Below, piece by piece: positions 25,387-64,000 of a stretch of DNA of 64,000 bases (the stretch's first letter is position 1; every line of letters begins with the position of its first letter). Source of the DNA: the human T2T-CHM13v2.0 reference genome, Homo sapiens. Location: assembly GCF_009914755.1 (NCBI RefSeq), contig NC_060947.1; one strand, 5' to 3'. The translations under genes were made by a program, and so were the position numbers. The notes beneath the pieces were generated by a model. The model searched no databases. It was not told the DNA's origin and saw only the letters and a list, made by a program, of their open reading frames with translations.

Positions 25387-27774
25387 ATTTTTTAATTAAA
25401 TTTTAAATTTCTGTGGCCACATAGTAAGTATATATATTTATGAGATACAGGAGATATTTTGATACAGGCATGCAATGTGAAATAATCACATCATGGAAAA
25501 TGGAATACCTATCCCCTCAAGTATTTATCTTTTGTGTGACAAACAATCCAATTATACTCTTTTGATTATTTTTAAATATACAATTAAATTATTATTGGGT
25601 ATAGTCATCCTGCCATCCTATCAAATACTAGGTATTATTCATTCTTACTATCTATATATTTTGTACTAACTAAATATTCCACCTCCCCACTACCTCCCCA
25701 AACTACTCTTCCCAGGCTCTGGTAGCCATCACTGTACTGCATATCTCCAGGAGTTCAATTGTTTCGATTAGATTCCACAAATAAGGGAAAACATGCAATG
25801 TTAATTTTTCAGGACCTAGGTTATTTCACTTAACGTAATGACCTCCAGTTCCAACCATGTTGTTGCAAATGACAGGATCTTATTTTTTATGGCTACATAG
25901 TACTCCACTGTGTAAAAGTAATAGTTTCTTTATCCATTCATTTGGTGGTGGACATTTAGATTGCTTCCAAATATTGGCTATTGTGAACAGTGCTGCAACA
26001 AACATGGGAGTACAGATACCTCTTTAATATTTGGATTTTTTTTATTCTGGGTATATACGAAGCAGTGGGACTGCTGGATCATATGGTAGTTCTGTTTTTA
26101 GTTTTGAGGAGCCTCCAAACTGCTCTCCTGAGTGGTTGTACTAATTTACATTCCCACCAAGTGTACAAGGGTTCCCCTTTCTCCATCTCTTCACCAGTAT
26201 TAGTTATTGCCTGCCTTTTAGATACAAGGCATTTTAGCTGGAGTGAGATGATATCTCACTGTAGGTTTGATTTGCATTTCAGTGATGATTAATGATGTTG
26301 AGCACCTTTTCATATGCCTATTTGCCATTTGTGTGTCTTCTTTTGAGAAATTTCTATTGAAATCTTTTTCCCATTGTTTGATTAGATTATTAGATTTTTT
26401 CCTATAGAATTGTTTGGGCTCTGTACATATTCTGGTTATTATTAATCCTTTGTCAGAGGGGTAGTGTGCAAATAAATTTTTCCCATTCTGTGGTTTGTCT
26501 CTCCACTATGTTGATTCCTTCCATGCTGTGCAGAAGCTTTTTAACTTGATGTGTCCCATTTGTCTATTCTTGCTTTGGTTGCTTGTGCTTGTGGGGAATT
26601 ACTCAATAAATTTTTGTCCAGACCAGTGTCCTAGATATTTTCCCCGATGCTCTCAGGTAGTAGTTTCATAGGGTGAGATCATAGATTAAGTATTTAATCC
26701 ATTTTGATTTGATTTTTGTATATGGTGAAAGATGGGGGTCTAATTTCATTTTTCTGTATGTGGATATGCAGTTTTTCCAGCACCATTTGTTGAAGAAATT
26801 ATCTTTGTCTCAGTGTATTTTCTTGGCACCTTTCTCAAAAATGAGTTTGCTGCACGTGTGTGGATTTGTTTATGGATTGTTTATTCCATTAGTCTATGTG
26901 TCTGCTTTTATGCCAGAACCATCCTTTTTAGTAAAAATAGCTCTTTAGTATAATTTGAAGTCAGGTAATGTAATTCCTCCAGTTTTCTTTTTGCTTAGAA
27001 GAGGTTTGAATATTCTTGATGTTTTGTGGAGAGCGTTGGATATACTTGATCTTTTGTGTTTCCATATACATTTTAGGATTTTTTTCTGTTTCTGTGAATA
27101 ATGTCATTGGTAGGTTGATAGAGATTGCATTTGGGTGTTATCAACATTTAAGCAATATTTATTCTTCTAATCCAAGAAAGTGTACCACCACTCCATTTTT
27201 TAGTATCTTCTTCAGTGTTTTTTAGTTCTCATTATAGACACCTTTTGATTATTTTGTTAATTCTTTGGTATTTAATTTTATTTGTGATTATTTTAAATGG
27301 GATTAGATTTTTGATTTACTTTTCAAATTGTTCGATGTTGGCATCTAGGAATGCTACTGATTTTGTGTTAAATTTTTTATCCTGTAATTTAAAGAATGTA
27401 TCAGTTCTAATTGTTTTTCAGTTGGATATTTTAGATTTTTTTCAAATATAAGATCATATCATCTACAAACAAAAATAATTTGACTACATCCATTCCAATT
27501 CAGATGTGCTTTATTTCTTCTCTTGTCTGTTTGCTCTAGTGAGGGCTTCCAGTACTATGTTGAATAACAGTAGTGAGAGTGGGCATCCTTGTTGCGTTCC
27601 AAATCTTTAAAAAAAAAGACTTTCAGTTTTACCCCATTCAGTGTGATACTAGCTGAAAGTCTGTTGTGTATGGCTTTTATTATGTTATGTTCCTTCTAAC
27701 ACACAATGTTTTGAGGGTTATTGTTATGAAGGGATTTTGAATGTTATGATATGCTACTCCAGCATCAATTGCAA
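25387..27774 (-). mobile_element. 5'-truncated L1MA2-like LINE-1
   Basis: 3' end GATACAGGCATGCAATGTGAAATAATCACATCATGG...ATCCCCTCAAG followed by antisense ORF2. Confidence 0.9.
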
Positions 27775-36879: not shown

Positions 36880-39800
36880 TTCTTTATGTTTTTAACTGAC
36901 AAATAAAATTTTGTATCCTTATGGCATATAGCATGAGGTTTTATAAATATATTAATATAGTGAAATAAGTGATACTATTTAACATAAGCATATACTTATG
37001 TTATATATACTTATATTTCTTTGGTGAGAAAATTTACCTACACTCTTAGCAATTTTCAACTATACAATAAATTAGTAACTATGATGTACAGTAGATTTAT
37101 TGAACTTATTCTTCCTAACTGAAATTTTGTGTCCTTTGACCAACATCTCTCCAATCTTCCAACTCCCTAGCTGCTGGAAACCATCATTTTGCTCTCCGTT
37201 TCTGAGTTTAATTTTTTTAGGTTTTACATATCAGTGAGATCATTTGGTATTTTTCTCTCTGTACCTGGTTAATATCACTTAACATAATATCTTGAGGTTC
37301 GTTCACATTGTCACAAATGACAGGATTTTCTCGTTTTGGAAAGCTTAGTCGTAATTCATTGTGTATATATACCACATTTTTTCTTATCCATTCATTTATT
37401 GATGAAGACTTAGGTTTATTCTGTATCTTTGCCTGTGTGAATAATGCTGCAATAAACACGAGAGTGCAAATATCTCTCTGACGCATTGATTTTATATCCT
37501 CTAGATACATATGCCATAGTGGGATTACTAGGTCATACGGTACTTCTATTTTTAAAATTTTTAGAAACCTCCATACTATTTCCATAATGGCTGTACTAAT
37601 TTACATTCTCACCAAAATGTACAAGGATTCCTTTTTTCCACATCCTCCATAACACTTGTTAACATTAATCTTTTTGATAATAGACTTCTAACGTGTGAGA
37701 TAGTTGTCTCGTTGTAGTTTTAATTTCCATTTCCCTAATATTCAGTGATGTTGAGCATTTTTTCATATATTTGTTGGCCATATATTTGTATGCCTTTTGT
37801 TGAGAAACGTCTATTCAGGTTCTTTACCCATTTTTCAATCAGGTTATTTGTTTTCTTGCTATTGAGTTGAGTATATTATATATTTTGGATATTAACTTCT
37901 TATCAGATAAATGGTTTGAAAATGTATTCTTCCATTCTGTAGTCTGTCTCTTCACTCTGTTGATTGCTTCCTTTGCTGTTGAGAAGCTTATTTTTATATT
38001 TGTTTTTTATCTTTTGAGACAGAGTCTCACTCTGTCGCCCAGGCTGGAGTGCAGTGGCGCGATCTTGACTCACTCCAATCTTCGCCTCCCAGGTTCCAGC
38101 AATTCTCCTGCCTCAGCCTTATGATTAGCTTGGATTACAGGCATGCACCATCATGCCTGGCTAATTTTTGTATTATTAATCGAGACGAAGTTTTACCATG
38201 TTGGCTAGGCTGGTCTTGAACTCCTGACCTCAGGTGATTCACCTGTATCGGCCTCCCAAAGTGCTGGGATTACAGGTGTGAGCCACAGCGCCGGGCCAAG
38301 AAGCGTTTTAGTTTAATGTCATTTCATTGTCAAATTTTGCTTTCATTGCTTGTGCTTTTGGGGTAATATCCAAAATGTCCTTACCCAGATAAATGTTATA
38401 GAGTTCCCCCCTATGTTTTCCTCTAGTAGTTTTATAGTTTCAGGTCTATCATTTTAGTTTTTCATCGATTCTTTGTTGATTTTTGTCAATGGTGTGAGAT
38501 AAGTGCCTAATTTTATTCTGCTTATGGATATCCAGTTTTCCCAGCACCAATTTTTGAAGAGCCTGCCCTTTCCCTAATGCGTGTTCTTGGCACCGTTGTT
38601 AAAAATGAATTCCCTGTAGACATATGAATTTGTTTCTGGGTTCTCCATTCTCTTCCATTGGTCTATCTGTCTGTTTTTATGCCAGTACCATGCTGTGTTA
38701 ATTGTAGTAAACTTTGAAATCAAGTAGTGTAATGCCTCTAGCTTTCTTCTTTTTGCTCAAGATTCTTTTTGGCTATTTGGGAGCTTTTGAGGTTCCATAC
38801 AAATTTCAGTAATTTTTTATTTTAAAAAAAATGCCAGTGGAGTTTTCACAGCAGTTGTATTGAATCTGTAGATTTTTTGGGTTGTATGGATATTTTAACA
38901 TTATTATTTATTCCAATTCATGAACATGAGACATTTCTTGTCTTCTTGTTTATTTGTGTCTTCACCTTCTTTCATCAATATTTTATAGTTTTCAGGGTAC
39001 AGATCTTTCATTTCCTCGGTTACATTTATTTCTTAGTATTTTATTATTTGTAGTTATTGTGAAGGGGAATGTTTTCCCAACTTCTTTATTGAATAGTTCA
39101 TTTTTAGTGTATAGAAACACTACAAATTTTGTATACTTATTTTGTATCCTTCAACTTTACTGAATCTTTTATTAGTTCAAATACTTTTTGTTAGAGTCTT
39201 TAGAGTGTTCTGTATATAACATCATGTCATCTGTAAACAAAGAAAAACTTACTTCTTCTTTCTGATTTTGATGCTTTTTATTCTTTTATCTCATTTTATT
39301 GCCCTGGCTAGGACTTCCAGTACCATGTTAAATGTAAGTAGTAAGAGGGAGCATCTTTGCCTTGTATCTGATCCTGGAGTTAACTTTACAACATTACACC
39401 ATTGAATATGATGCTATCTATGGTTTGTCATATATGGCTTTTATACTGTTGAGGTAAATTTCTTTTATAACTGATTTCTTGAGAATATGGCATGAAAGAA
39501 TGCAGAATTTTATTAAATGACTTTTCTGCTTCTATTGAGATGATCTTATGTTTTTCCCCTCATTTTGTTAATGTGATGTATCATATTTATTTATTTGTGT
39601 ATATTGAATCATTCTTGCATCATAGTGATAAATCCCACTTGACCATGGTGAATGATCTTTATAATGTGCTGTTGAATTTGCTTTGCTACTATCTTGTCAA
39701 GAAATTTTGTATCTATATTTATCAGGGATATCTGCCTGTAATACTTTTTTCTTAGATTGCCCTGGTCTGGCTTGTGTATCAGGGTAATGCTGGCCTCATT

Positions 39801-40539: not shown

Positions 40540-42167
40540 ACAGAGACTGCTATGAACAATTATACATTAACAACTTAAATAACATTGAATAGATTCTTAG
40601 ATGCATGAAAACTATCAAGACTGAATTATGAAGAAATTGAAAAGCTGAACAGATCAATAGTAAGTAAAAGGATTTAATCAGTAATAATATCTCATCAACA
40701 AAAAGCCCTGGACCTGATGGCTTCTACCAAACTAGATATAGAAGTATCTTAACATAATAAAGGCCATACATGACAAGCTCACAGCTAAAATCACACTCTA
40801 TGGTAAAAAGTTGAAAACCTTTCCTCTGAAATCAGAAAAAGACAATGATGTCCACTCTCACCACTTGCATTTAATATTGTATTGGAATAACAAGCCAGGG
40901 CAATTAGTCAAGAAAAAGAAATGAAAGTCATGCTAATCAGAAAGGAAGAAGTTAAATAGTCTCTCTTTGCAGATGACAGAATCTTATGTATAGGAAACCC
41001 TAAAGATTCCATCAACAAAATGATTAGAACTAATACACAAATTCAATATAGTTGCAGGATACAAAATCAACATATAAATATTACTTGTGTTTCTAAACAG
41101 TAACCATCAACTATCTGTAAATAAATCAGGGAAAAAATCCATTTACAATAGCACCAGTAAAAATAAAATACTTAGGGATAAACTTAACTAAGAAGGTAAA
41201 AGACTTGAACACTGAAAACTGAAAAATATTACTGAAAGCATTAACATGCACAAACAAATGAAAAGACATGTCATGTTCATGTATAGGATGAATTAATATT
41301 ATTAAAATGTCCATACTACTCAAAATAATCTACGGATTTAATTCAATCCTTATCAAAATTCCAATGACATTGTTCACAGAAATAGAAAATAAAATTCTGA
41401 AATTCATATGAAATTACAAAAGACTCCTTAATTGCCAAAGTGATCTTAAGAAAGAGGAACAAAGTAAGGGAAATCACACTTCTTGAATGTAAAATATATT
41501 ACATAGTTAGAGTAATTAAAACCGGTGATAATGACATAGAGACAGGCATGTAGATGAATGAAACAGAATAGAGAGCCCAGAAATATATCTGTACATGTAT
41601 TGTCAATTGATCTTTGATAAGGGTGGGAAGAGTACACAATGGGGAAAGTTTAGTCTCTTAAACACATGGTGCTGGGAAAACTGGATATCCACATATAAAA
41701 ATGAATTAAATTGGACTTTTATCATACACTCTACACAAAAATAAACTCAGAATAGATTAAAGAGAAATGTAACACTTGAAACTCTTATGCTCCTAGAAGA
41801 AAACATAGGGAAAAAAGTTTATTGACGTTTGTCCAGGCAATGATTTCATGGATATGACACCAAAGTACAGGCATCAAAGACAAAAATAAAATGGGACTAT
41901 TTAAAACTAAAATCTTTTGCACAGAAAAGGTAACAATCAGTGGACTGTAAAGGCAACATGTAGAATTGCAGAAAAACAATCCCAAACCATATACCAAATG
42001 AGAAATTAATATCAAAATATATAAGAAACTCCTACAACTCAATAGCAAGAATAAATAAATCAATACATAACTCAACTTGAAAGTGGGCAAAGGTCTTGAA
42101 TAGATATTTCTTCCAAGAAAAACAACAAATGGGCAATAGGTATATGTTGATATGCTCTACACCACTA
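40540..42167 (+). mobile_element. Old L1MB-like piece 3: ORF2 RT/C-terminal region
   Basis: TTTGCAGATGACAGAATC (FADD) etc.; ends ...ATGCTCTACACCACTA. Confidence 0.88.
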
Positions 42168-44449
<2,282 letters not shown>

Positions 44450-44810
44450 TCATAAGTTTTAATTACTATGCAACACGCATTTTTTTTTAATTTGGGAAAA
44501 ATAAACTGAAGCTTTCATTTAAATACCAAACCAAAGTGCTATCCTGCCCTTCCTTACCCATGCTCTTGTCATGAACATTAAAATATGTCTTGGACCTTGC
44601 TTCCCAAAGAGTCAATAAACAAAGAGAAAAACCCTTATACCTGTGAGATTTCTTGGGTTTACTTTAGAGTATAGAAGCTTAGTCAGTGCCTGTCTTTTCT
44701 CTTTGTTCTAACTTCCCCAGCTCCCCGCAGTTCTGCCTACTAATTGACCATAACTGCAGGAATATCCCACGTAATTCCTGAGCTAATATTGACATAAGCA
44801 AGTTATATAC

Positions 44811-45433
44811 TTACACTGTTGGTGGGACTGTAAACTAGTTCAACCATTGTGGAAGTCAGTGTGGTGATTCCTCAGGGATCTAGAACTAGAAATACCATTT
44901 GACCCAGCCATCCCATTACTGGGTATATACCCAAAGGATTATAAATCATGCTGCTATAAAGACACATGCACACGTATGTTTATTGTGGCACTATTCACAA
45001 TAGCAAAGACTTGGAATCAACCCAAATGTCCAACAATGATAGACTGGATTAAGAAAATGTGGCACATATACACCATGGAATACTATGCAGCCTTAAAAAA
45101 TGATGAGTTCATGTCCTTTGTAGGGACACGGATGAAGCTGGAAACCATCATTCTCAGCAAACTATAGCAAGGACAAAAAACCAAACACCACATGTTCTCA
45201 CTCATAGGTGGGAATTGAACAATGAGAACACTTGGACACAAGAAGGGGAACATCACACACTGGGGCCTGTTGTGGGGTGGGGGAGGGGGAGAGATAGCAT
45301 TAGGAGATATACCTAATGTAAATGACGAGTTAATGGGTGCAGCACACCAACATGGCACATGTATACATATGTAACTAACCTGCACATTGTGCACATGTAC
45401 CCTAGAACTTAAAGTATAATAATAATAATAAAA
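44811..45433 (+). mobile_element. L1PA4-like 3' end (620 bp) with (AAT)n tail
   Basis: AAGGACAAAAAACCAAAC, GAACACTTGGACAC, CCCTAGAACTTAAAGTATAAT; no clear TSD seen. Confidence 0.9.
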
Positions 45434-45587
45434 GACATGAAGAGCAAAGGTAAAATTTATAGGATGGGACTTGAATATCTATTATTAGTGATAATCTATG
45501 TGTAAGAAATTTGTACATATGATAGACAGGAATAAGCATTACTAGGAGTAAATGGAACTATTGGTTAAGAGTAAATCAACATCTTAG

Positions 45588-45712
45588 TCACTCATTTGTT
45601 ACTGATTCAACAATATTTTTTCAGCACTTACTGTATGTGGGCTGTTCAAGCACTGGGGATTCAACATTACAAGAAACAGGCTAAAAAGTCCCTGGGTAAT
45701 GGAGATTTTAAA
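45588..45712 (-). mobile_element. L2 3' end fragment
   Basis: GATTCAACAATATTTTTTCAGCACTTACTGTATGTGGGC...CACTGGGGAT. Confidence 0.7.
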
Positions 45713-45809
45713 TGAACTTCTTTTCTCTGGAATTTTACTCTGTGATAGAGAATAATAAATGAACTTAATAAAAGGTAAAGTTTTAAGGATAATCATAAAA
45801 GCAAGGTTA

Positions 45810-46014
45810 CAGAGCCAGAAAAACCTGAGCTTGAAATTTGCCTCTATCACATACTACCTGAATAACTATGGGCAGGTTAATTAATTAACCAGTTTCTCTT
45901 AGCATCAACTTCTATATACGATAATCAGAAGTAATGAAAACTACTTTGGAAGATATTTGTGAGCATGTAATGAGACAACATATGTAAGCCTACTAGTACA
46001 AGAACTTGATACAC
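45810..46014 (+). mobile_element. MIR
   Basis: GAGCCAGAAAAACCTGAG...TGGGCAGGTTAATTAA...GTGAGCATGTAATGAGACAACATATGTAA. Confidence 0.7.
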
Positions 46015-46171
46015 ATCTTACCCTTTCCTTATGAGAATAGAAGAGGCATCCATACTTTTGTCCTACTGGCACAAGACACTCTTTTCCATTATCTTTGTCT
46101 ACTCTGGATTGGAAACCTCTTTCTCTTTTATTTGATAAACTCATTATAATATTGTTCTTTTAATACTCCAA

Positions 46172-46430
46172 ATTTAGTTTAGTTTAACTGGTATTTATTA
46201 TTTACTTTGTACCAGAAAAGATGCTAAATTCTGGAAATACAAAAATGAATAACAGAATTCTTCCCTTGTTTTTTCTCACAGCCTAGTGGGAGAAATAGGC
46301 AAAAATAAATAAATTTTATGCAATGTGGTAACTGCTATTACAGATCTAATCCCAGAGTGCTATGAAAGGACATAGGAGGGACATCTAAGCCAGACTGGAG
46401 AGAAGGAGGTTCAGTGATGGCTTCGTGAAG
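46172..46430 (-). mobile_element. L2 3' fragment
   Basis: TATTTATT...GATGCTAAATTCTGGAAATACAAAAATGAATAA...CTCACAGCCTAGTGGGAGA. Confidence 0.72.
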
Positions 46431-46699
46431 CACATTTTATATATAACAACCAATAATTCCCTAAAAATATGGAGATTATGAATCCACAATTCTCTTAATT
46501 TTAAACTGAAGGCTAAGTGTCTGGGACAACACTTCAACATTCCTTTATAAGCATGCCATTTGTGTAGTACATTCTTTAATACACTCCATCAAGTGAAGCT
46601 CTTATTAGATTCATTAAGGAGAATGGACATCTCCATTCATGTAGCTTCAAAGGCAGTGATTTATGTCCAAAATGTTAGAGAGGCAGCATAGTATAGTTT

Positions 46700-46882
46700 G
46701 GTAGCTCTCATTCTTGGTAGATAGCTGAAGCAGGTGAAGAGGGAGTGGCTTAAGAAATACAGATGACTTGACCCCATTATCAATGAATTGAATCAAAATC
46801 CTTGGAGAGGAGGCCCAGACATCTGTATTTTTAAGAGCTCCCCAATCAATTCAGATGCACAGTGAGTGTTAAAAATAAGTAA
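46700..46882. mobile_element. MER5A/B hAT-Charlie element inside a MIR-like relic
   Basis: AAATACAGATG...TGAATCAAAATC...GGCCCAGACATCTGTATTTTTAAGAGCTCCCC...TTCAGATGCACAG. Confidence 0.8.
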
Positions 46883-48164
46883 TATAGTGGTCTAAACAGC
46901 TTATACAGAATAGGTGTTCTCTTCATGGCTCAGTAATAAACTTGTCCTGTTACTTAGCGAGTCATTTCATCTTTCTTGTCCTTAATTTCCTTGTCCACAA
47001 GATGACACGATCTCCAAGGTCTGACATTCTTATACCATGGCTCTGTTTCTTTATTTCTGGACAATATTTCTCCTGCTCATTTACTGCAAAACACACTTTG
47101 ATATTTGGATTTGCATACTATTTACTTTATTCAAGCACATGGTGATTCTCAAACTGATTTATACTGTGGAAGAAAATTAACATTCTCAAGGAAAAGATTT
47201 AGCCAAAGCACATTTTTTGAAGTCTTATGTAATTAAATATAATAACAGTTGAGTACATATTTTCATGTAATGAAATAATCCAGATTGTGATATATTGGAA
47301 GGAGTTACTCTCCAAGGGACAGTACAATGACAGATGGAGAAGAGTTAGAACAGCCAGACTTTCTGACTTTTTAGAACTTAGTCTAAAGAAAATAAATGTT
47401 TCTGGTGTTAAATATACTTCTTGTTTATGTTTCTGGAAAGGTAATCTAATTGATATTGAGAGAACTTGTTGATTTGGATAAATTTAAGGTTTCCTTCTCA
47501 TAAAATATATTTAAAATACAAGAATATATGAAGTATTGCATACAGGTCAATATGTCTACAATTCTGTGAAATAAATTAGAATGATTTAAAAACTAGAACC
47601 TCTGTGGCCAATAAATTGATGCTATGGTTAAGAATATTATTATCTGTGTTACAAGTTTTGAAGTAAAGCAAATCTCCTGAAATGGCCAGATTATTTCTAT
47701 TGCATTCTAAAAGAAAGTATATAGTATATGAGTCTGAATGTTTGTCAATTGCTCCAGCCGGTAAGGTCAATAGGCAATACTGTTCAGAGTACTTTATCTA
47801 GTGATAAAAGGAATGAATTGTTGATAGGGAATAAAGCATGTTTGGAAATAAAGCATAAATGTTTAACCCAATAATATGTGCTAGTTGCCTCATTCAACGT
47901 TATTCAAATTGGAAATAGTAGAATGAATGTTATAATAAAGGAACTGAAGTCCAAGGTAAGTGAAAATGTGGAGTACCTGGCTTCTTGAAGGGAGTTCAGG
48001 TTTTCAGGCCCGGATAAACTGGTTCCAAGCCTGAGAGAATGGCTTATGGACTATGAAAGACAGGTTTAGATACTGGAAGCCTGAGAAATAGAGACTACGT
48101 TTTCTCATTCCTTCTGGCTAATGAAAAAAAAAAATCAAAGCTGTATACACATGGGACAAAGTTG

Positions 48165-48335
48165 TTTAGTGGAATAAGCAAAGACTTTGGAATGACATTA
48201 ATGTGGCTTCAAATCTCAGCTATGTAATTCTAGCCTGGAGGATATCACTTTACATCCTGAGCCTCAGTTTTCTCAATTATTAAATAAAAATAACATGTCA
48301 ATCTGGTACTATTGTTGTAAAGATAGAAGATAATA
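48165..48335 (+). mobile_element. MIR (interrupted by MER47B)
   Basis: GACTTTGGAAT...TTCAAATCTCAGCT...CTGAGCCTCAGTTTTCTCA. Confidence 0.8.
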
Positions 48336-48336
48336 G

Positions 48337-48753
48337 AGATGTTCTTTGACACATGATGTGGTCATGTCCTAATGAACCCTTCATAATATGAAAATGTTGT
48401 CAGTTCAAAATGCATTTACTACACCAATCTTTCAGACCATCATAACCTAGCCTGGTCTACCTTAAAAGTGCTTAAACACTTACATTAGCCTACAGTTGAC
48501 CAAAACCATCTGGCAACATGGCACACTATAGAGTATCAGTTGTTTACTCTTACAAAAGCATGGTGGACTGGGTGCTGTGTCTGGCTGCTGCTACCCATCA
48601 TTGTGAAAGAGAATCATACTGCATATCGGTAGCCTGAGAAAAGATCAAAAATCAAATTTTGAAGTATGGTTTCTATTGAATGTGTATCACTTTCACACCA
48701 TTCTGAAGTCAAATTATCGTCAGTTAAACCGTCATTAAGTCAATGATTTTCTT
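48337..48753 (+). mobile_element. MER47B (Tigger family)
   Basis: AAAATGCATTTACTACACC, ACACTTACATTAGCCTACAGTTG, ATCTGGCAACA, GAAAAGATCAAAAATCAAATTTTGAAGTATGGTTTCTA. Confidence 0.88.
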
Positions 48754-49044
48754 TATATGAAAATGGCCACAAGAAGTTTGTTACACTACAGGAATTCAAC
48801 TAATTATAGACCCTCTATTATTAAAAATAGTTTGTGCCTTAGGCCTGCTTATTTTTATACCCATTCTTGAGTTTCTGGAAGCCCTGAATAACTTTTTGTG
48901 AAGATATATCATAAATAACACTGATACCAATGTTCTTACATCCTCTGCATAAGTTTAATGAACTTCTGAAATTCCATAAAAATGTAGAGTGAAACTAGTT
49001 TCTACCCTACTAGGAAAAGAAGTTTTAAAGGAGATATTTAAAAA

Positions 49045-50712
49045 ATAATTTCAACTTTTGTTTTGGACTAAGGGGAAACATGTGCAAGTTTTTTACATGG
49101 ATATATTGTGTGATGTTGAGGTTTGAGGTATAAATGAGCCTGTCACTATGCAGCAAGGATAGTACCTAATAGAAAGTTTTTCAGCCCTTGCCGCCCTCCC
49201 TTTCTTCCCACTAGTAATCTCCAATATCTATTGCTCCCATTTTTATGTCTATGCATACCCAATGTTTAGCTTCCACTTATAAGTAAGAAAATGCAGTATT
49301 TGGTTTTCTGTTCCTGCATTAATTTGCCCAGGATAATGGCCTCCAGCTGCATCCATGTTGCTACAAGGAATATAATATTATTCTTTTTTATGGCTGCATA
49401 GTATTCCATGGTGTATATGTGCCACATTTTCTTTATCAAGTCCACCACTGATGGGCACCTAGGTTGATTCCATGTCTTTGCTATTGTAAATAGTGCAGTG
49501 ATCAACATATACGTGCATGTGACTTTTTGGTAGAATGATATAATTTCCTTGGCATATATACTCAGTAGTGGGATTGCTGGGTAAGGTGGTAGTTCTGTTT
49601 TAAGTTCTTTGAGAAATCTCCAAACTGCTTTCCACAGTGGCTGAACTAATTTACCCTGTCCACCAACAGTGTACAAGCATTCCTTTTTTTCCACAGCCTC
49701 ACCAGCATCTACTTTTTTTTAACTTTTTAAAAATAACCATTGTGACTGGTGTGAGATGGTATCTCATTGTGGTTTTTATTTGTGTTTCTATGATGATTAG
49801 CGATATTCAGAATTTTTTCAGATTAGTTGCTTATTTGTCTTCTTTTCAGTAGTGTCCGTTCATGTCCTCTGCCCATTTTTTAATAGGGCTATTTCCTTTT
49901 GCTTGTTGAATTGTTCCTACTTATAGATTCTGGATATTAGACCTTTGCTGGATGCATAGTTTGTGAATATTTTCTCCCAGTTCTGTTGGTTGTCTGTTTA
50001 CTCTATTAATAGTTTATTTTGCTGTGCAGAAGCTGTTTAGTTTAATTAGTTCCCTCTTGTCAATTAATCAATTAATTTTTTCATGTGCTGCTGGATTCAG
50101 TTTGCTAGTATCTTGTAGAGTACTTTTGCATCTGTGTTCATCGGAGATATTGGCCCATCATTTTCTTTTTTATTGTATTTTTATCAGGTTTTGGTATTAG
50201 GGTGATGCTGGCTTCATAGAATGAATTAGGAAGAAAAACCTTCTCCTCTATTTTTTTTAAATAGTTTCAGTAGAATTGGTACCAGCTCTTCTCTGTACGT
50301 CTGGTAGAATTTGGCTTTGAATTTATGTAATTCAAGGCTTTTTAGTTGGCAGGCTTACTGCCAATTCAATTTTAGAACTCGATATTAGTCTGTTCAAGGT
50401 TTCAGTTTCTTTCTGATTCAACCTTGGGAAGTTGTGTGTTTCCAGGAATTTATCCATTTTCTCTAGATTTTCTAATTTGTGTCCATAGAGGTGTTCATAA
50501 TAGTCTCTGAGAATCTTTCTTATTTCTGTGGGATTAGTTGTAGTGTTTCCTTTGTCATTTCTGATTGCACTTATTTAGATCCTCTCTTTTTTTTTCTTTG
50601 TTAGTCTTACTAGTGGCCTATCAATCTTCTTTATCCTTTCAAATAAACAATTTCTGGTTTTGTTGATTCTTTATATGGATTTTGGGATCTCAATTTTCTT
50701 TCAATTCTGCTT
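49045..50712 (-). mobile_element. L1PA15/16-like LINE-1 with internal deletion at ~50070
   Basis: 3'UTR (ATATTGTGTGATGTTGAGGTTTG...), ORF2 C-terminus 49266-49694, jump to upstream ORF2 after CAATTAATCAATTAAT. Confidence 0.87.
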
Positions 50713-51093
50713 AAATGAGGTATTTAAAAATCATGCTAAATGATTTAATGTTTTGAATTCTCTCTGCAGGTAAAAAAGTCTTCTAGGGTGGTTTGTTTAA
50801 AAGAAGACAAGAGTTAGTGTTTGTTTTGTTACATATTGTTTTGTTTTCAGGGTGACCTATCATTCTGTTTTCCATCTAATCTTTTTGTGTGTTGGGCAAA
50901 AGTATTACCTCTGTGTATTTACTATCCTATGAGTCAGTTACCAACAGTGATGATATATGTATGTAGTTTGGAAAGTGACTTGATAGAAAATAGAAAATAG
51001 AAAATATAAATGTAAAATATTGCTTGCAATAAGCTTATTTGAAGCTATAAAGCACAGAGATCTTAATGACATTGTACAAGAAGAAGGCACACA

Positions 51094-52710
51094 AAGGCAG
51101 AAATCAAGTTCTTTGAAACCAATGTGAACAAAGAGACAACATACCAGAATCTCTGGGACACAGCTAAAGCGGTGTTAAGAGGGAATTTTATAGCACTAAA
51201 TGCTCACATCAGAAAGCTAGAAAGATCTCAAATCGACACCCTAACATCACAATTGAAAGACCTAGAGAGACAAGAGCAAACTAATCCAAAAGCTAGCAGA
51301 AGACAAGAAGTAACTAAAATTAGAGAAGAATTGAAGGAGATAGAGACATGAAAAACTCTCCAAAAAATTATGAATCTGGGAACTGCTTTTCTGAAAAAAA
51401 AATAGCCAATTTTGAAGAATCAAATAGCCACAATAATAAATGATAAACAGCATATCACCACTAACCCCACAGAAATACAAACTACCATCAGAGAATACTA
51501 TAAACACCTCTATGCAAATAAAATAGAAAATCTAGAAGAAATGGATAAATTCCTGGATGCATACACCCTACCAAGACTAAACCAGGAAGAAATTAAATCT
51601 ATGAAGAAATCAATAACAAGTTCTGAAATTGAGGCATTAATTAATAGACTAAGAATCAAAAAAAAAAAAAAAAAAAACCCAGGACCAGACAGATTCACAG
51701 CCGAATTCTACCAGAAATACAAAGAGGAGCTGAAACCATTCCTTCTGAAACTTGAAACAATTGAAAAGGAGGGTGTCCTCCCTAACTCATTGTATGAAGC
51801 CAGCATCATCAGGATACCAAAACTGGGAGAAGAAACAACAAAACCAGAAAACTTCAGGCCAATATTCCTGATGTGCATTGATGCAAAAATCCTTAATAAA
51901 ATACTGACAAACTGAAACCAGCAGTACATTAAAAAACTTAACCACCATGATCGAGTCAGGTTTATCCCAGGGATGCAAGTCTGGTTCAACATATGCAAAT
52001 CAATAAATGTAATCCATCACATAAACAGAACCAATGACAAAAACCACATGATTATCTCAATAGACGCAGAAAAGGCCCTTGATAAAATTCAGCATACCTT
52101 CATGTTAAGAACTCCTAATAAACTATGTATTGATGGAAGATATTTGAAAATAATAAGAGCTATTTATGACAAACCCACAGAAAATATCATATTGAATGAG
52201 CAAAAGCTGGAAGCATTCCATTTGAAAACCAGCACAAGACAAAGATGCTCTCTCTCACCACTCATATTCAACATAATATTGGAAGTTCTGGCCAGGGCAA
52301 TCAGTGAAGAGAAAGAAATAAAGGGTATTCAAACAGGAAGAGAGGAATTCAAGTTGTCTCTGTTTGCAGGTGACACGATTTTATATTTAGAAAACCCAGT
52401 TATCTCAGCTGCAAAACTTCTTGAACTGATAACCTTCGGCAAAGTCTCAGGATAAAAAATCAATGTGCAGAAATTACAAGCATTCCTTTACACCAACAAT
52501 ATGCAAGCAGAGAGCCAAATAGTGAATGAACTCTCATTCACAATCGCTACAAAGAGAATAAAATACCTCAGAATGCAGCTAACAAGGGATGTGAAGGACC
52601 TCTTAAAGTAGAACTACAAACCGCTGCTCAAGGAATTAAAAGAGGATATAAAACATGGAAAAACATTCCATCCTCATAAATAGGAAGAACCAATATCATG
52701 AAAACAGGCA
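51094..52710 (+). mobile_element. L1PA8-like ORF2 segment
   Basis: ORFs 51124-51351, 51412-51915, 51973-52455; CACATCAGAAAGCTAGAAAGATCTCAAATCGAC; interrupted by LTR5A. Confidence 0.9.
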
Positions 52711-52887
52711 TGTAGGGAAAAGAAAGAGAGATAAGACTGTTACTGTGTCTATGTAGAAAGGGAAGACATAAGAAATTCCATTTTGACCTATACCCTGAAC
52801 AATTGCTTTGCCCTGAGATGCTGTTAATCTGTAACTTTGCCCCAGCCTCTTTGCTTCAACCTCTTTGCCCCAATCTTGAGCTCATAA
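52711..52887 (+). mobile_element. HERV-K (HML-2) LTR5A, first ~175 bp only
   Basis: TGTAGGGAAAAGAAAGAGAGAT...TGTTACTGTGTCTATGTAGAAAGGGAAGACATAAGA...CAATTGCTTTG...TTTGCCCCAGCC...GAGCTCA. Confidence 0.9.
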
Positions 52888-52890
52888 GTT

Positions 52891-53160
52891 CAGGAACAGA
52901 AAACCAAACACCACATGTTCTCACTCATAAGTGAGAGTTGAGCAATGAGAACACATGGACACATGGAGGGAAACATCACACACTGGGGACTGTCTGGGGG
53001 TTGGGGGCTAGGGGAGGGATAGCATTAGGAGAAATACCTAATTTAGGTGATGGGTTGATGGGTGCAGCAAACCACTATGGCATGTGTATACCTATGTAAC
53101 AAGCCTGCATGTTCTTCACACGTATCCCAGAACTCAAAGTATAATAAAAAAAAATTTTAA
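52891..53160 (+). mobile_element. L1PA7-like 3' end with poly(A); continuation of 42168-44449
   Basis: GGGGGCTAGGGGAGGGATAGCATTAGGAGAAATACCTAAT...GGGTGCAGCAAACCAC...TATCCCAGAACT; resumes ~70-75 nt downstream of where the first part stops. Confidence 0.9.
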
Positions 53161-53162
53161 AA

Positions 53163-53900
53163 AGAAATATAAATAAAAACTTTAGCAAGATATCACCTCA
53201 CACCTGTTAGGATAGATATTATCAAAAAATAGATACTATCAAAAAATAACAGGTAACAAGTGTTGGCAAACCCTTGTACACCATTCGTGGAAATGACAAA
53301 TGGTGCAGCATCTATGCAAAAGAATACTGAGGTTTCCCCCAAATTAAAAATAGAACTGCCATATATTCTAAGGATCATATGGCAATTATAAGCTGCTGAT
53401 ATCTGGATCTGGAAGAGGTATATGCACTCCCATGTTCATTGCAGCATTATTTACAATGGCCAAGATAAGGAGACAACCCAAATGCCCATAAATGTATGAA
53501 TGGATAAAGAAAATATGGCACACATACAATGTAATATTATTCAGCCTTATAAAAGAAGGAAATCCTGCCCTTGGCAACAACATGAATAAACTTTGAGAAC
53601 GTTATGCTAAGTTAAATAAGCCAGTTGCATAAAGACAAATACTTTAGGACTCCACTTATATAAGGAATGTAAAATAGGCAGACTCATTGAAGCAGAGGTA
53701 CAGTGGCAGGTGCCATGGGTTGTGGGGAATGGAATGGGAGGTTGCTGTTTAATAGGGATAAAATTTAGGTTATATAAGACAAATACATTCTAGATATCTG
53801 CTGGACAACATTGTGCCTAGAGTTAACAATATTGTATTGTGCACTTAAAAATTTGTTAAGAGGGTAGATCTCATGTTAAAACTTTTTATCACAATAAATA
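53163..53900 (+). mobile_element. Old L1MB-like piece 4: 3' end (L1MB2/3-like)
   Basis: GAAATATAAATAAAAAC...AGATATCACCTCACACCTGTTAGG continues piece 3; terminal GTTAAGAGGGTAGATCTCATGTTAA...ACAATAAAA. Confidence 0.88.
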
Positions 53901-58827: not shown

Positions 58828-61800
58828 GGAGAAGGAAGAGCAAGATGGCAGAATAGAAGGCTCCACCCATCATCCACCCAACCCTGCAAGGACACCAATT
58901 TAACAGCTACCTACAAACAAACAAAAAGAAACCCTTCATAATAACAAAAAATCAGATGAGCACTCATATTACCTGGTCTTAACTTTCTATCACTGAAAGA
59001 GGAACTGAAGAGGTAGAGAGAACAGTCTCAAATCACTGGTGCTACACCTTCTCCATCCCATTGCAGTGGTGGTGTGGTGCAGATAACTTTCCTGGGTCTG
59101 GGGGAGGAAGAGAACAATTGTGGGACATTAAACTCAGTGCTGTCCTGTTAAAGCAGAAATAAAAAATGGACCAAACTCAGCTGATGCCCACCCACAGAGG
59201 GAACATTTAAACCAGCCTTCGGCAAAGGAAAATCCCCAATCTCAGCAGTCAAAACTCAATCCCTGCAAGCCTCACCACCACAGGCTAAAGTGCTCGAGGC
59301 CTCTAAGTAAATTCAAAAGGCAGACTAGGCTATAAGAACTGCAATTCTTAGACAAGTTTAGTGCTGAACCAGGCTCAGAGGCAGTGGACTTGGGGGGAGA
59401 GGGTCACGCAACGCACTGAGACACCAGCTGGGGTGGCTAATGCAATGCTGGCATTACCCCTTCCCTAACCCCAGGCTGCACAGCTTGTGGCTACAAAAGA
59501 GACCCCTTTCATTCTTCTGAGGAGAAGAGAGGAAAGAGTGAGAAGGAATTTGCCTTGCATCTTGGATACCAGTTCAGACACAGCAGAACAGGGCACCAGT
59601 TAGATGCATGAGGCCCTCATTCAAGGCCCTAGCTCCCAGAAGATATTTTTAGACACAACTTGGGCCAGAAAAAAACCTGCTGTCTTGAAGGAAAGGACCC
59701 AGTCCTGGCAGCATTCATCACCTAATTGAAGAGGCCTTTGGTCCTTAATAACCAGCAGCAATACCCAGGTATTACATTGAAGGCCTTGGGTGAGCCTCTG
59801 ATACATTCTGGCTTTAGGTGAGACTCAGCACATTACCAACTGCAGTGGATTTAGAAAGAAACCCCTTCAGCTTGAGAAAAGCAGAAAAAGTAAAGGGAAT
59901 TTGTCTTGGACTTTAGGTATCAGCTTGGCTACAGTGGGGTAAAGTGCCAAGTGGGTTCTTGAGGACCTCAAATTCAAGAATTGAATATTGAATGTCACTT
60001 TCTGGACCTGCCTTGGGTCAGAGGGGAGCCCATTGCCCTAAAGGGTGAGTCCCAGGCTATGCAGCATTCATCACAAGCTGATGTAAAAGCCCTTGGGTCT
60101 TAAGGGAACATTTGTGATAGGCTGGTAGTATTCCCCATGGGCCTGTGGGGGTGAAGGCTATAAGATGAAGCTCCTCTGCCTTTGGAAAAGGGAGGAAAGA
60201 GTGAGAAAGACTGTGTCTTGTGGTTTAAGTACCAGCTTAGCCACAGTACAATAGAACACTACATAGATTTCTTACATTTTTGACTCTAGCCTCAGACACC
60301 CAGATGGCAGCTCTGGACATATACATTGTTATATACAATGGCCTAGTTATATACAATAGTTATATACTATTGTATATGGCCCCCAGCCATATACAATAGA
60401 CCCTCAGCAAATATCATACTGAATTTGAAAAACTGAAAGCCTTTCCTTAGAGATCTGGAACACCACAATGATGCCCACTTTCTCCACTGTTATTGAGCAT
60501 AGTACTGAAGTCCTAGCTAGAGTAATAAGACAAGAGATAGAAATAAAAGTTATGCAAATTGCAAAGAAACAAGTCAAATAATCCGTTTGCAGGTGATATA
60601 ATCTTATATTTGGAAAAACCTAAAGAGTCTACAATAAAACTATTAGAACTGTTTTGGTACCAATACCATGCTGTTTTGGTTACTGTAGCCTTGTAGTATA
60701 CTCTGAAGCCAGGTAGCATGATGCCTCCAGCTTTGTTGTTTTTGCTTAGGATTGTCTTGGCTATAGGGGTTCTTTTTTGGTTCCTTGTGAAATTTAAAGT
60801 AGTTTTTTCTAATTCTGTGAAGAAAGTCAATGGTAGCTTGATGAAAATAGCATTGAATCTATAAATTACTTTGGGTAGAATGGCCATTTTCATGATACTG
60901 ATTCTTCCTATCCATGAGCACTAATGTTTTTTCATTTGTTTGTGTCCCCTCTCATTTTCTTGAGCATTCGTTTGTAGTTCTCCTTGAAGAAGTCCTTCAC
61001 GTCCCTTGTAAGTTGTATTTCTAGGTATTTTATACTCTTTGTAACAATGATGAATGGAAGTTAACCCATGATTTGCCTCTCTGCTTGTATGTTGCTGGTG
61101 TATAGGAATGCTTGTGATTTTTGCACATTGATTTGTATCTTGAGACTTTGCTGAAGTTGCTTTTCAGCTTAAGGAGTTTTTGGGCTGAGATGATGTGGTT
61201 TTCTTAACATGCAATTATGTCATCTGCAAGCAGAGACAATTTGACTTCCTCTCTTCTTATCTGAATTCCTTTTGTTTCATTTTCTTTCCTGATTACCCTG
61301 GCCAGAACTTTCAATACTAAGTTGAATAGGAGTGGTGAGAGACAGCCACCACACATCTACAACCATCTGTTCTTTAACAAACCTGACAAAAACAAGCAAT
61401 GGAGAAAGGATTCTCTATTTAATAAATGATGCTGGAAAAACTGGCTAGTCATATGCAGAAAACTGAAACTAGACCCTTTCCTTACAAATTGTACATAAAT
61501 TAATTCAAGATGGGTTGAAGACTAAAATGTAAAACCCAAAACCATAAAAACCGTAGAAGAAAACCTAGGCAATATCAATCAGGACATAGGCATGGGCAAA
61601 TAGTTCATGACTACAATACCAATAGCAATTGCAACAAAAGCCAAAATTGAAAAATAGGATCTAATTAAACTAAAGAGCTTCTGCACAGCAAAAGAAACTA
61701 TCATCAGAGTGAACAGGAAACCTACAGAATGAGAGAAAAATTTTGCAATCTATCCATCTGACAAATGTCTAATATCCAGAATCTGCAAGGAACTTAAACA

Positions 61801-64000
61801 AATTTACAAAAAATAGACCAACCCCATCAAAAAGTGGGCAAAGGATATGAACAGACACTTCTCAAAAGAAGACATTTATGCCGACAACAAACATATGAAA
61901 AAAAGTCATTATCTCTGGTCATTAGAGAAATGCAAATCAAAACCAAAATGAGATACCATCTCATGCCAGTCAGAATGGCGATTATTAAAAAGTCAGGAAA
62001 CAACAGATGCTGGAGAGGCTGTGGAATAATAGGAATGCTTTTACACTGTTGGTGAGAGTGTAAATTAGTTCAACCATTGTGGAAGACAGTGTGGTGATTC
62101 CTCAAGGACCTAGAACCAGAAATACCATTTGAACCAGCAATCCCATTACTGGGTATATACCCAAAGGATTATAAATCATTCTACTATAAGGACACATGCA
62201 CATGTGTGTTTATTGCAGCACTATTTACAATAGCAAATACACGGAACCACCCCAAATGCCCATCAGTGATAGACTGGATAAATAAATGTGGCACAGGTAC
62301 ACCCTGGAATACTATGCAGCCATAACAAAGAATGAGTTTATGTCCTTTGCCGGGGCATGAATGAAGCTGGAAGCCATCATTCTCAGCAAACACACACAGG
62401 AACAGAAAAGCAAACCCAGCATTTTTTCACTCATAAGTGGGAGTTGAAGAATGAGAACACATGAATATGGGGTAGGGGGAACATCACACACCCGGGCCTG
62501 TCGGGGTGGGGGGCAAGGGGAGGGAAAGCATTAGAACAAATACCTACTGCATGTGGGGCTTAAAACCTAGATGGCGTGTTTATAGGTGCAGTAAACTACC
62601 AGGGCAAATGTATACCTATGTAGAAAAGCTCACGTCCTGCACATGTATCCTGGAACTTAAAGTAAAATTAAATAAATACATACATAAATACATAAATAAA
62701 ATTTAAAAGAAAAATGATTGGAACTGATAAATTCAGTAAAGCTGCAGGATACAAAATCAATATACAGAAGTCAGTAGCATTTCCAGATGCCAAAGGAGAA
62801 CAATCTGAAAAACAAATTAAAAAGGTAATTTTATTTGTCATATCCACAAATCAAATTAATCACAGATTGGAGGAATTAGTATTCTTAAAATGCCCATACT
62901 GCCTAAAGCAATCTACAGATTCAATACAATCCCTATCAAAATACCAAGGATATTCTTCACAGAAATAAAAATAATGCTAAAATTTATATGGAACCACAGA
63001 AGACCTAGAATAGTCAAGGCTATCCTGAGGAAAAATAACAAAACTGGAGGAATAACATTACCTGGTTTCAAATTATATTACAGAGCTATATTAAACAAAA
63101 AACTTGGTACTGGCATAAAAACAGAAACATAGACCTATGGAACAGAATAGAGAACCCACAGACAAATCCACATACCTATAGTAAACTCATTTTTTTACAA
63201 AAGTGCCTAGAACATACACTAGGGAAAAGATAGTCTCTTCAATAAATGGTGCTGGGAAAACTGGATATCCATATGCAGAAGAGTGAAGGTAGACCCCTAT
63301 CTCTCACCATATACAAAAATCAAAACAAAGTGAATTGAAAACTTAAATTTAATACCTCAAACTATGAACTAGTGTAAGAAAATTTGGGGGAAAATCTTGA
63401 AGATATTGGTCTGAGCAAAAATTTCTTGAGCAATATACCACAAGCACAGGCAACCAAAGCAAAAATGGACAAATGGATTCACATCAACTTAAAACACTTT
63501 TGCACAGCAAAAGAAACAATCAGCAAAATGAAGAGACAACCTACAAAATGGGAGAAAATATTTGCAAACTACCTATCTGACAAAGGATTAATAACCAGAA
63601 TACATAAGGGGCTCAAACATCTCTATAGGAAAAAAAATCTAATAATGCAATTAAAAATGGGCAATATATTTGAATAGACGTATTTTTTTGTTTGTCTAGT
63701 CCAACAAATGTCAAACAAACACACCTAGAGTGAACTCACATATGGTGAAACACACCTATAGTGAACAACTATTTATTTGCCATTTGTTTTAATAGTAAAA
63801 CAAATGCCAAACAGACATATGAAAAGGTGTTCAACATCATTGATTATCAGAGAAAAGCACATCAAAACTACAATGAGATGTGATCTCACCCTAGTTAAAA
63901 TGGCTTATATCCAAAACATAGGCAATAACAAATAGTGGCAAAGATGTGGAGAAAAATGAAACGCTAGTACACCATTGGTGGGAATGTAAATTAGTACAAG
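58828..64000 (+). mobile_element. L1MA1-3-like LINE-1: 5'UTR (58828-60318), large internal deletion, ORF2 (60385-60651, 62711-64000)
   Basis: GAGCAAGATGGCAGAATAGAAGGCTCCAC 5' start; ORF2 remnants 62890-63132, 63384-63677. Confidence 0.85.
60652..62710 (+). mobile_element. L1PA8-like insertion with 5' inversion (twin priming): inverted 60652-61343, forward 61344-62710
   Basis: antisense ORF2 then sense ORF2/3'UTR (GCATGTGGGGCTTAAAACCTAGATG); TSD AAAACTATTAGAACTG 60636-60651 / AAAATGATTGGAACTG 62711-62726. Confidence 0.92.

What the first reader, a model, noticed from the sequence alone, without database searches (positions are those of the whole stretch)
44447..52890. 8.4-kb block of ancient genomic DNA captured inside a young L1PA7, bounded by an exact 12-bp direct repeat
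Seen: an L1PA7-like element stops at ...TACTATGCAGC (44449) and resumes ~70-75 consensus nt later at CAGGAACAGAAAACC (52891), running to its poly(A). The host L1MB is also contiguous across the whole unit (42167 to ~53163). Both junctions carry AGCTCATAAGTT (44447-44458 and 52879-52890), 8432 bp apart. The block holds unique DNA plus MIR, L2, MER5, MER47B and L1PA15/16 relics. Knowledge: those families stopped moving long before L1PA7 was active, so they cannot have transposed into it. Inference: the block was copied or moved from another locus. The 12-mer is not native L1 sequence at the target (L1 reads AGCCATAAAAA) and there is no poly(A), so it is not an L1 TSD or a 3' transduction. Terminal redundancy fits a circular donor copied slightly more than once, or MMBIR/TMEJ template switching back to the segment start using AGC(T)CATAA microhomology.
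Basis: partly seen in the sequence, partly recalled or inferred. Interest (0 to 1): 0.8.

Follow-up and report, generated by a model that had tools for sequence, protein, structure and literature searches.

The report
Genomic fragment patched into an L1
An 8.4-kb piece of single-copy human X-chromosome DNA was spliced into the middle of an older-primate L1 retrotransposon, most likely as a patch during repair of a chromosome break; it is a neat but not new kind of rearrangement scar and touches no gene.

Summary
An L1PA7-like element (42168-44449 and 52891-53154) is split by 8.4 kb. Exactly 76 nt of L1 are missing. The host old L1 reads straight across the whole unit. AGCTCATAAGTT sits at both junctions and nowhere else in the window.

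The block's right end (52711-52887) is the first ~177 bp of a ~1,030-bp ERV-type LTR, cut off inside the 12-mer. A younger L1 3' end (44813-45430) lies inside the block. The left L1 piece carries its own 577-bp deletion.

The 12-mer is a mosaic. AGCTCA is native LTR sequence. CTCATAAGT is an exact copy of native L1 sequence 33 nt inside the right L1 piece. AGC overlaps the left L1 end. The final T is unexplained.

All four non-L1 stretches of the block that I searched (about 4.1 kb of the 8.4 kb) are single-copy in T2T-CHM13, so it was moved, not duplicated. No donor scar was found in the window, in the 20 kb on either side, or at three other chrX LTR copies.

Best reading: a break in the L1 was repaired by capturing an excised fragment, with junctions built by microhomology-primed, aborted templated synthesis (polymerase-theta/MMBIR-like). 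A circular donor is not excluded. This is a known kind of event; interest is moderate to low. Outgroup genomes are needed to date it and find its origin.

The parts
41700..42167 (+). Host old L1 (L1M-type), left part, ending ...GCTCTACACCACTA
   Evidence: Aligns to independent old L1 copies at 26290-26750 and 37744-38014 and was read against them. All 39 non-self genome hits of 41950-42400 begin at window 42167-42171, which marks the boundary.
42168..44449 (+). Left piece (A) of the L1PA7-like element, reference coordinates 635-2466 and 3044-3523. It has an internal 577-bp deletion at 43972-43978 and ends ...ACTATGCAGC
   Evidence: It is 88-91 % identical to its nearest genome copies.
44447..44458 (+). 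Left copy of AGCTCATAAGTT. AGC is shared with the L1 end; TCATAAGTT is not the native L1 continuation
44459..44474 (+). TTAATTACTATGCAAC, an imperfect echo of the L1 end AATACTATGCAGC (shared word TACTATGCA)
   Evidence: An equal echo occurs at 602 of 21167 window positions (2.8 %), so this is only mildly unusual.
44450..52890 (+). The inserted block, 8,441 bp between the two L1 pieces
   Evidence: Single-copy in the assembly apart from its interspersed repeats.
44813..45430 (+). B: a younger L1 3' end with its own A-rich tail, a separate insertion inside the block
   Evidence: Up to 95 % identical to genome copies; 91 % to the last 279 bp of A.
48330..48765 (.). Old interspersed repeat
   Evidence: 3454 first-look candidates; the 39 scored non-self hits are 71-76 % identical.
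49232..50711 (-). E: old L1 fragment(s), reference coordinates about 3656 to 2846 and about 1483 to 890
   Evidence: About 77 % identical to the reference elements.
51094..52704 (+). C: older L1 fragment, reference coordinates 620-2266, interrupted at its 3' end by the LTR
   Evidence: About 82 % identical to the reference elements.
52711..52887 (+). First ~177 bp of a ~1,030-bp ERV-type LTR, starting TGTAGGG and truncated inside the right 12-mer
   Evidence: 39 non-self hits, 88-97 %, most reaching query position 183; seven full copies align over ~1,015-1,030 bp; only positions 1-177 are found in the window.
52879..52890 (+). Right copy of AGCTCATAAGTT. AGCTCA is native LTR; TAAGTT departs from the LTR, which reads CAAAAA
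52891..53154 (+). Right piece (D) of the L1PA7-like element, reference coordinates 3600-3856 plus a 9-A tail
52924..52932 (+). Native L1 word CTCATAAGT, the likely template for 9 of the 12 junction bases
   Evidence: present at the same place in natural copies L046 and L045; random 12-mers reach a 9-nt match in the flanks 0.7 % of the time.
53155..53700 (+). Host old L1, right part. 53155-53163 (TTTTAAAAA) may be L1 tail or host

Best explanation
After an L1PA7-like element had inserted into an old L1, a double-strand break opened inside it and 76 nt were lost. The break was sealed by capturing an 8.4-kb piece of chromosomal DNA that had been cut out of another place. One of that piece's cuts ran through a recently inserted ERV-type LTR.

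The joins were made by an error-prone, microhomology-primed pathway (polymerase-theta end joining or MMBIR-like). A free 3' end annealed by a few bases to nearby single-stranded L1, copied about 8 nt (TCATAAGT), let go, and was joined. The second junction then acquired the same word by priming through AGCTCA, six bases that the LTR end shares with the first junction. That gives AGCTCATAAGTT at both ends.

Shown here: the nesting, the 76-nt loss, the LTR truncation, the mosaic origin of the 12-mer, and the single-copy state. Inferred: the break, the order of the joins, the enzymes, and the excision at the source.
For: - One L1 split at one point of one host.
- The block contains elements older than the split L1, so it did not transpose in.
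- Four searched stretches of the block have no second copy in the 3.1-Gb assembly.
- No paralog spans the host/L1 junction: 0 of 39 non-self hits.
- The right end of the block is an LTR cut at about position 178 of about 1,030.
- 0 of 29 LTR copies read T after AGCTCA: 21 read CAAAAA, 2 read other variants, and none of the remaining 6 shows CATAA. Local alignments to those copies stop by the A of AGCTCA.
- CTCATAAGT is native L1 sequence 33 nt from the break. A match that long occurs for 0.7 % of random 12-mers.
- No other LTR copy in the genome carries the junction word: 3 non-self hits at 3 mismatches, 0 of them in an LTR.
- In print: polymerase-theta scars are 3-30-bp insertions identical to flanking DNA, made in aborted rounds usually of 10 bp or less, AT-rich, and able to create new microhomology for the next round (PMC7165422, abstract and passages read).
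Against: - No donor site or excision scar was found, so 'cut out elsewhere' is inferred only from the absence of a second copy. A donor copy lost later would look the same.
- The last T of the 12-mer has no template. L1 reads G there.
- The template lies 33 nt from the present end. The cited paper finds microhomology use falling off beyond about 15 nt, although the original break position within the lost 76 nt is unknown.
- The echo of the L1 end at 44461-44474 is only mildly unusual, at 2.8 % of window positions.
- Capture of 8.4 kb is far larger than the 73-414-bp patches reported at experimental breaks (PMC5110952, passages read).
- Only one genome was available, so the timing relative to the L1 insertion is untested.
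Confidence: 0.5

Rival explanations
1. Circular donor. The segment was excised as an extrachromosomal circle whose closure joined LTR ...AGCTCATAA to GTT+TTAATTAC.... The broken L1 end primed on the circle at AGC and copied slightly more than one turn, or a staggered opening was filled in. That left 12 bp of terminal redundancy.
For: - An exact 12-bp direct repeat sits at the two ends of a single-copy insert.
- The LTR stops and unrelated DNA follows exactly at the repeat, as a circle junction would look.
- AGC, and more loosely AGC-CATAA, is shared between the L1 end and the LTR.
- Germline circle re-insertion has been proposed and documented at larger scale, in cattle KIT and in mammalian synteny maps (bioRxiv 10.1101/2022.06.22.497135, abstract and section 5 read).
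Against: - It treats the 9-nt identity with L1 sequence 33 nt away as coincidence, at about 0.7 %.
- It needs a private C>T change in the LTR that 0 of 29 copies show.
- GTT stays unexplained.
- No source locus is available to show circular permutation.
Confidence: 0.2
2. Capture during the L1's own integration. The L1 cDNA, being made at a break or atypical nick in the host L1, jumped off its RNA after about 264 nt. It was joined to a free genomic fragment. Synthesis then resumed on the same RNA 76 nt upstream, primed from the fragment's other end.
For: - The L1 unit has no detectable target-site duplication, and 0-9 nt of host are missing.
- The unit also carries a second internal skip of 577 bp, with about 7 nt of overlap.
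- L1 insertion intermediates are reported to recombine with distal DNA breaks (PMC13526784, abstract only).
- Endonuclease-independent L1 insertions are described in the human genome (PMC1920257, search listing and abstract start only).
Against: - It needs two primings on one RNA with 8.4 kb of DNA between them, a structure I did not see described in the texts read.
- A break in a resident L1 explains the near-contiguity more simply.
- The element has an ordinary A-tail at the host junction.
Confidence: 0.15
3. L1-mediated retro-insertion in trans of a long unspliced transcript, with the 12-mer as a true target-site duplication of an L1 copy that already carried a small repair scar.
For: - A 12-bp direct repeat lies in the usual size range of L1 duplications (recalled).
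- A pre-existing scar GCAGC+TCATAAGT+T+CAGG could have made the word native to the target (inference).
- A run of 9 T lies 22 nt inside the left junction.
Against: - A reverse-transcribed copy leaves its source in place, yet no second copy exists.
- There is no A- or T-tail at either junction.
- The site does not resemble TTTT/A.
- The right repeat continues the LTR for six bases, which would have to be chance or microhomology.
Confidence: 0.04
4. Nothing moved. The two L1 pieces and the two host pieces are unrelated fragments that line up by chance, or the assembly is wrong.
For: Only one assembly was examined. Subfamily names were not tested.
Against: Two independent continuities coincide: L1 to within 76 nt, and host to within 0-10 nt on two references. 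There is also an exact 12-mer at both junctions. The neighbouring L1 pieces are only about 80 % alike, which is too little to mislead an assembler.
Confidence: 0.03

Closest known systems
Polymerase-theta-mediated end joining with locally templated insertions (PMC7165422)
   Same: Flanking sequence is lost (76 nt). The junction filler is short, AT-rich and identical to nearby flanking DNA in direct orientation (9 nt). Newly made sequence appears to be reused as microhomology for the next join.
   Different: Here the two ends are bridged by 8.4 kb of captured DNA rather than joined to each other. The template lies 33 nt from the present end. Enzyme dependence cannot be tested.
Class 2 templated sequence insertions: break patches from distant regions (PMC5110952)
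   Same: Foreign genomic sequence sits at a break. There is no poly(A), and there is microdeletion and microhomology at the junctions.
   Different: Those patches are tens to hundreds of bp, are thought to be RNA-derived, and leave the source intact. This one is 8.4 kb and has no second copy.
Germline transposition through a circular intermediate (cattle KIT; eccDNA synteny proposal, bioRxiv 10.1101/2022.06.22.497135)
   Same: Non-duplicative relocation of a chromosomal segment. Terminal redundancy could mark a circle junction.
   Different: The known cases are hundreds of kb and are recognised by circular permutation against the source. No source is available here, and the redundancy has a simpler local explanation.
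MMBIR / FoSTeS template switching
   Same: Microhomology at the switch points (AGC; AGCTCA). A return to the original template upstream of the departure point would duplicate a short word.
   Different: Replicative switching copies the template and should leave two copies. Only one exists in this assembly.

Membership tests
L1 endonuclease/TPRT insertion (including 3' transduction and class 1 templated insertions) | The flanking direct repeat is a duplication of native target sequence | tested here: not met
   The native L1 at the break reads GCAGC|CATAAAAAAG in L046, with close variants in L045 and L036. The right repeat continues the LTR for 6 bases.
L1 endonuclease/TPRT insertion (including 3' transduction and class 1 templated insertions) | A poly(A) tail at the 3' junction of the inserted sequence | tested here: not met
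   Neither junction has an A- or T-run abutting the repeat.
L1 endonuclease/TPRT insertion (including 3' transduction and class 1 templated insertions) | The source locus is retained, because it is copied through RNA | tested here: not met
   No second copy of four searched stretches.
Polymerase-theta templated-insertion scar | An insertion of 3-30 bp identical to flanking DNA | tested here: met
   CTCATAAGT at both junctions equals 52924-52932. The control gives 0.7 %.
Polymerase-theta templated-insertion scar | Dependence on POLQ | not testable with these tools
Class 2 templated sequence insertion (break patch) | A short patch (reported 73-414 bp experimentally) with the donor retained | tested here: not met
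   The insert is 8,441 bp and no donor copy exists (sizes from PMC5110952).
eccDNA re-insertion | The insert is circularly permuted relative to its source, with the circle junction inside or at the end of the insert | not testable with these tools
   No source locus was found in the window, the 20 kb on either side, or 3 chrX LTR copies. No outgroup genomes are held.
eccDNA re-insertion | Loss of the segment at its source (non-duplicative) | tested here: inconclusive
   The single-copy state is consistent with this, but it is equally expected for a linear excised fragment.
MMBIR / FoSTeS | Copy-number gain of the templated segment | tested here: not met
   Single copy in the assembly.
MMBIR / FoSTeS | Microhomology at the template switches | tested here: met
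   AGC at the left junction and AGCTCA at the right.

The most novel reading that the evidence does not exclude
This is a base-pair-resolved natural example, in the human lineage, of a kilobase-scale chromosomal segment that left its locus as an extrachromosomal circle. It was then re-inserted in the germline by copying just over one turn of the circle into a broken L1. 'Older repeat inside younger repeat' nesting would then be a general, alignment-free way to find such events genome-wide.
Probability: 0.2. Interest if true: 0.6.

Novelty: new member of a known kind. Interest (0 to 1): 0.35.

Why it matters
No gene or annotated element is touched, so the event has no evident function. Its value is as a specimen. 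The nested repeats give a built-in 'before' state, so both junctions of a non-duplicative 8.4-kb relocation can be read to the base. They show how the join was made: loss of 76 nt, reuse of 6-9-nt words, and a cut through a then-recent LTR.

The logic could be automated. An old repeat or unique DNA inside a younger element, with the younger element and its host both continuous across it, could flag repair-mediated insertions across genomes without outgroup alignments. The interruption-analysis papers I found (PMC1914374, PMC2517846; search listing, plus one term search of PMC1914374 that returned nothing) use nesting to order transposon ages. I did not see it used for this purpose, but my look was shallow.

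Tried and rejected
- Donor or paralog search. Four stretches of the block returned only themselves plus interspersed-repeat hits.
- Paralogous 'empty site' of the target: none; 0 of 39 non-self hits cross the host/L1 boundary.
- Rest of the LTR as a donor scar. It is absent from the window and from the 20 kb on each side.
- Genome-wide word search just past the LTR breakpoint. It gave 460 matches, but only 100 are listed. The 3 listed on this chromosome all keep their LTR 5' ends, so the search is not exhaustive.
- The idea that C (51094-52704) and E (49232-50065) are halves of one twin-primed L1. I dropped it once a proper reference showed C ends at 2266 and E begins at 2846. The apparent fit came from the 577-bp deletion in A.
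- The idea that D belongs with C. Rejected: D is 86-91 % and C is 82 % identical to the same references, and reference positions 2267-3599 are missing between them.
- The idea that GTT is native to an LTR variant. Rejected: 3 non-self matches to the 24-nt junction word, none in an LTR.
- The echo of the L1 end after the left 12-mer. My first control was swamped by simple repeats (9.7 %). The stricter control still gives 2.8 %, so I give it little weight.
- Wider flanks and earlier findings were not available.

Full report
**What is there**

The window is T2T-CHM13 chrX:114,948,001-115,012,000. AGCTCATAAGTT occurs exactly twice, at 44447-44458 and 52879-52890, with no further match at one mismatch. 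As a bare word this is weak: shuffles give 0.67 such matches. What matters is where the two copies sit.

A self-comparison of the region and a search of the whole assembly with the left L1 piece gave reference L1 copies on which every L1 fragment could be placed (coordinates of locus L046):

| Piece | Window | Strand | Reference coordinates | Identity to references |
|---|---|---|---|---|
| A (left L1 piece) | 42168-44449 | + | 635-2466 and 3044-3523 | about 88-91 % |
| D (right L1 piece) | 52891-53154 | + | 3600-3856, then a 9-A tail | 86-91 % |
| B | 44813-45430 | + | 3245-3857 | up to 95 % |
| C | 51094-52704 | + | 620-2266 | about 82 % |
| E | 49232-50711 | - | 3656 to 2846, and further | about 77 % |

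A and D are therefore collinear, with exactly 76 nt missing. Three natural copies (L046, L045, L036) read ...ACTATGCAGC|CATAAAAAAG (or a close variant) ... CTAACA|CAGGAACAG... across the gap. A and D score alike against the same elements, and L037, L052, L059 and L063 are among the best hits for both.

The host old L1 is also continuous. Window 42166/7 and 53164 map 9-10 nt apart on two independent old L1 copies elsewhere in the window. Read side by side, those copies run straight through the insertion point. Two independent continuities plus the 12-mer at both junctions make chance or misassembly very unlikely.

1. The last ~177 bp of the block (52711-52887) are the beginning of an LTR about 1,030 bp long. 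A genome search gave 39 non-self hits at 88-97 % identity, most reaching query position 183 of 186. Seven full copies align with each other over 1,015-1,030 bp at 89-93 %, and only their first 177 bp are found in the window. By recall this is an ERV-K-type LTR; I could not test the name. Its copies are about as similar to each other as A is to its nearest relatives. So it is roughly as young as the split L1, and the block is not uniformly ancient.
2. B is a younger L1 3' end with its own tail, a separate insertion inside the block.
3. A has its own 577-bp internal deletion at 43972-43978, with about 7 nt of overlap between the two halves.

**Where the 12-mer comes from**

Native copies of the LTR read ...CCTTGAGCTCACAAAAACATGTG.... 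The window reads ...CTTGAGCTCATAAGTT|CAGGAACAG. So AGCTCA is LTR sequence and the LTR is left after it.

- Of 29 LTR copies, 21 read CAAAAA after the core, 2 read other variants, and none of the 6 my pattern missed shows CATAA. That is 0 of 29 with the window's T.
- Local alignments to those copies end by the A of AGCTCA.
- A 24-nt word across the right junction has three other matches in the genome at 3 mismatches: one in an Alu and two in unrelated unique DNA. None is in an LTR. So TAAGTT is not an LTR variant.
- CTCATAAGT, nine of the twelve bases, is native L1 sequence at 52924-52932, 33 nt inside D. It is present at the same place in natural copies. Random 12-mers with the window's dinucleotide make-up reach a 9-nt match in the 100-nt flanks 0.7 % of the time.
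- At the left junction, AGC is the end of A.

The 12-mer is thus a mosaic: LTR (AGCTCA), L1 interior (CTCATAAGT) and L1 end (AGC), all overlapping, with only the final T unaccounted for. Because both copies share that T, one copy was most likely made from the other.

**Moved, not copied**

Four stretches covering the non-L1 parts of the block (44450-44812, 45435-46100, 46000-48000, 47900-49235) find only themselves in the 3.1-Gb assembly. The exceptions are two weak short hits and an old interspersed repeat at about 48330-48765, which has 3,454 candidates at 71-76 %. A copy made in the last 30 million years or so would be over 90 % identical and could not have been missed. The stretch 50712-51093 was not searched.

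No paralog of the target spans the host/L1 boundary. The rest of the LTR, which should mark the source, is not in the window nor in the 20 kb on either side. A word just past the breakpoint has 460 genome matches, of which only 100 are listed. The three listed on this chromosome keep their 5' ends. The source therefore remains unknown, and that search was not exhaustive.

**Most likely mechanism (inference)**

1. A break opened in the resident L1 and 76 nt were lost.
2. A free 8.4-kb fragment was captured. It had been excised elsewhere, with one cut through the LTR.
3. The junctions were built by microhomology-primed synthesis that started, copied a few bases and aborted.
   - At the left, GCAGC was extended by TCATAAGT, copied from single-stranded L1 on the other side of the break, plus one T, and was then joined to the fragment.
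   - At the right, the fragment's LTR end ...GAGCTCA annealed to the new ...CAGCTCA|TAAGTT, copied TAAGTT, and was joined to D.

This matches the published scar of polymerase-theta end joining: insertions of 3-30 bp identical to flanking DNA, tracts rarely over 10 bp, AT-rich, with earlier rounds creating microhomology for later ones (PMC7165422, abstract and passages).

Weak points:
- The template is 33 nt from the present end, whereas that paper finds use falling off beyond about 15 nt. The original break point within the lost 76 nt is unknown.
- The final T has no template.
- Captured patches described at experimental breaks are 73-414 bp and leave their source intact (PMC5110952, passages).
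- The echo TTAATTACTATGCAAC of A's end just after the left 12-mer looks suggestive, but an equal echo occurs at 2.8 % of window positions. I give it little weight.

**Rivals**

It explains the redundancy and the abrupt LTR/non-LTR switch at the repeat, and germline circle re-insertion is in print (bioRxiv 10.1101/2022.06.22.497135, abstract and section 5). But it leaves the 9-nt identity with neighbouring L1 as coincidence, needs a private C>T change in the LTR, and leaves GTT unexplained.
- Capture during the L1's own integration. This is made a little more plausible by the lack of any target-site duplication around the L1 unit, its second internal skip, and a report that L1 intermediates recombine with distant breaks (PMC13526784, abstract only).
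- Retro-insertion of a long transcript, with the 12-mer as a true duplication. This fails on the missing source copy, the missing tail, and the LTR continuity.
- Replicative template switching (MMBIR/FoSTeS). It fits the microhomologies but predicts two copies.

**Verdict**

The details change in three ways. The fragment was moved rather than copied. It ends in a truncated young LTR. And the '12-bp repeat' is a repair-built mosaic, neither a foreign word nor a target-site duplication.

This is a well-resolved member of a known class: break repair by fragment capture, or insertional transposition, with alternative end-joining junctions. It touches no annotated gene. Comparison with ape and monkey assemblies would date it, locate the source, and decide between a linear and a circular intermediate.

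Noticed in passing
window 43972-43978: The left L1 piece has its own 577-bp internal deletion relative to intact copies, with about 7 nt shared by both alignment halves (a microhomology deletion). It could be part of the same messy event or separate.
   Followed up: partly
window 42160-42170 and 53146-53170: The L1PA7-like unit has no detectable target-site duplication in its host. The host reads ...CACCACTA | unit | TTTTAAAAAGAAATAT..., and 0-9 nt of host are missing, depending on whether TTTTAAAAA is tail or host. That is atypical for an endonuclease-made L1 insertion.
   Followed up: partly
window 44813-45430: A 5'-truncated, clearly younger L1 3' end (up to 95 % identical to genome copies) with an AATAATAATAATAAAAG tail lies inside the block. 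Its own duplication was not resolved, so it cannot be said whether it landed before or after the block moved.
   Followed up: partly
window 60686-62705: Another L1 in the window changes strand in the middle (61342-60686 on the minus strand, 61841-62325 on the plus strand, relative to piece A). This is the pattern of a 5'-inverted (twin-primed) L1.
   Followed up: no
window 48330-48765: An old interspersed repeat of about 430 bp with thousands of genome copies at 71-76 % identity. Family not named.
   Followed up: no
G000:C23 152825254 and 152851997: Two copies of the same LTR family lie 27 kb apart in opposite orientation on the X. Both have intact 5' ends.
   Followed up: no
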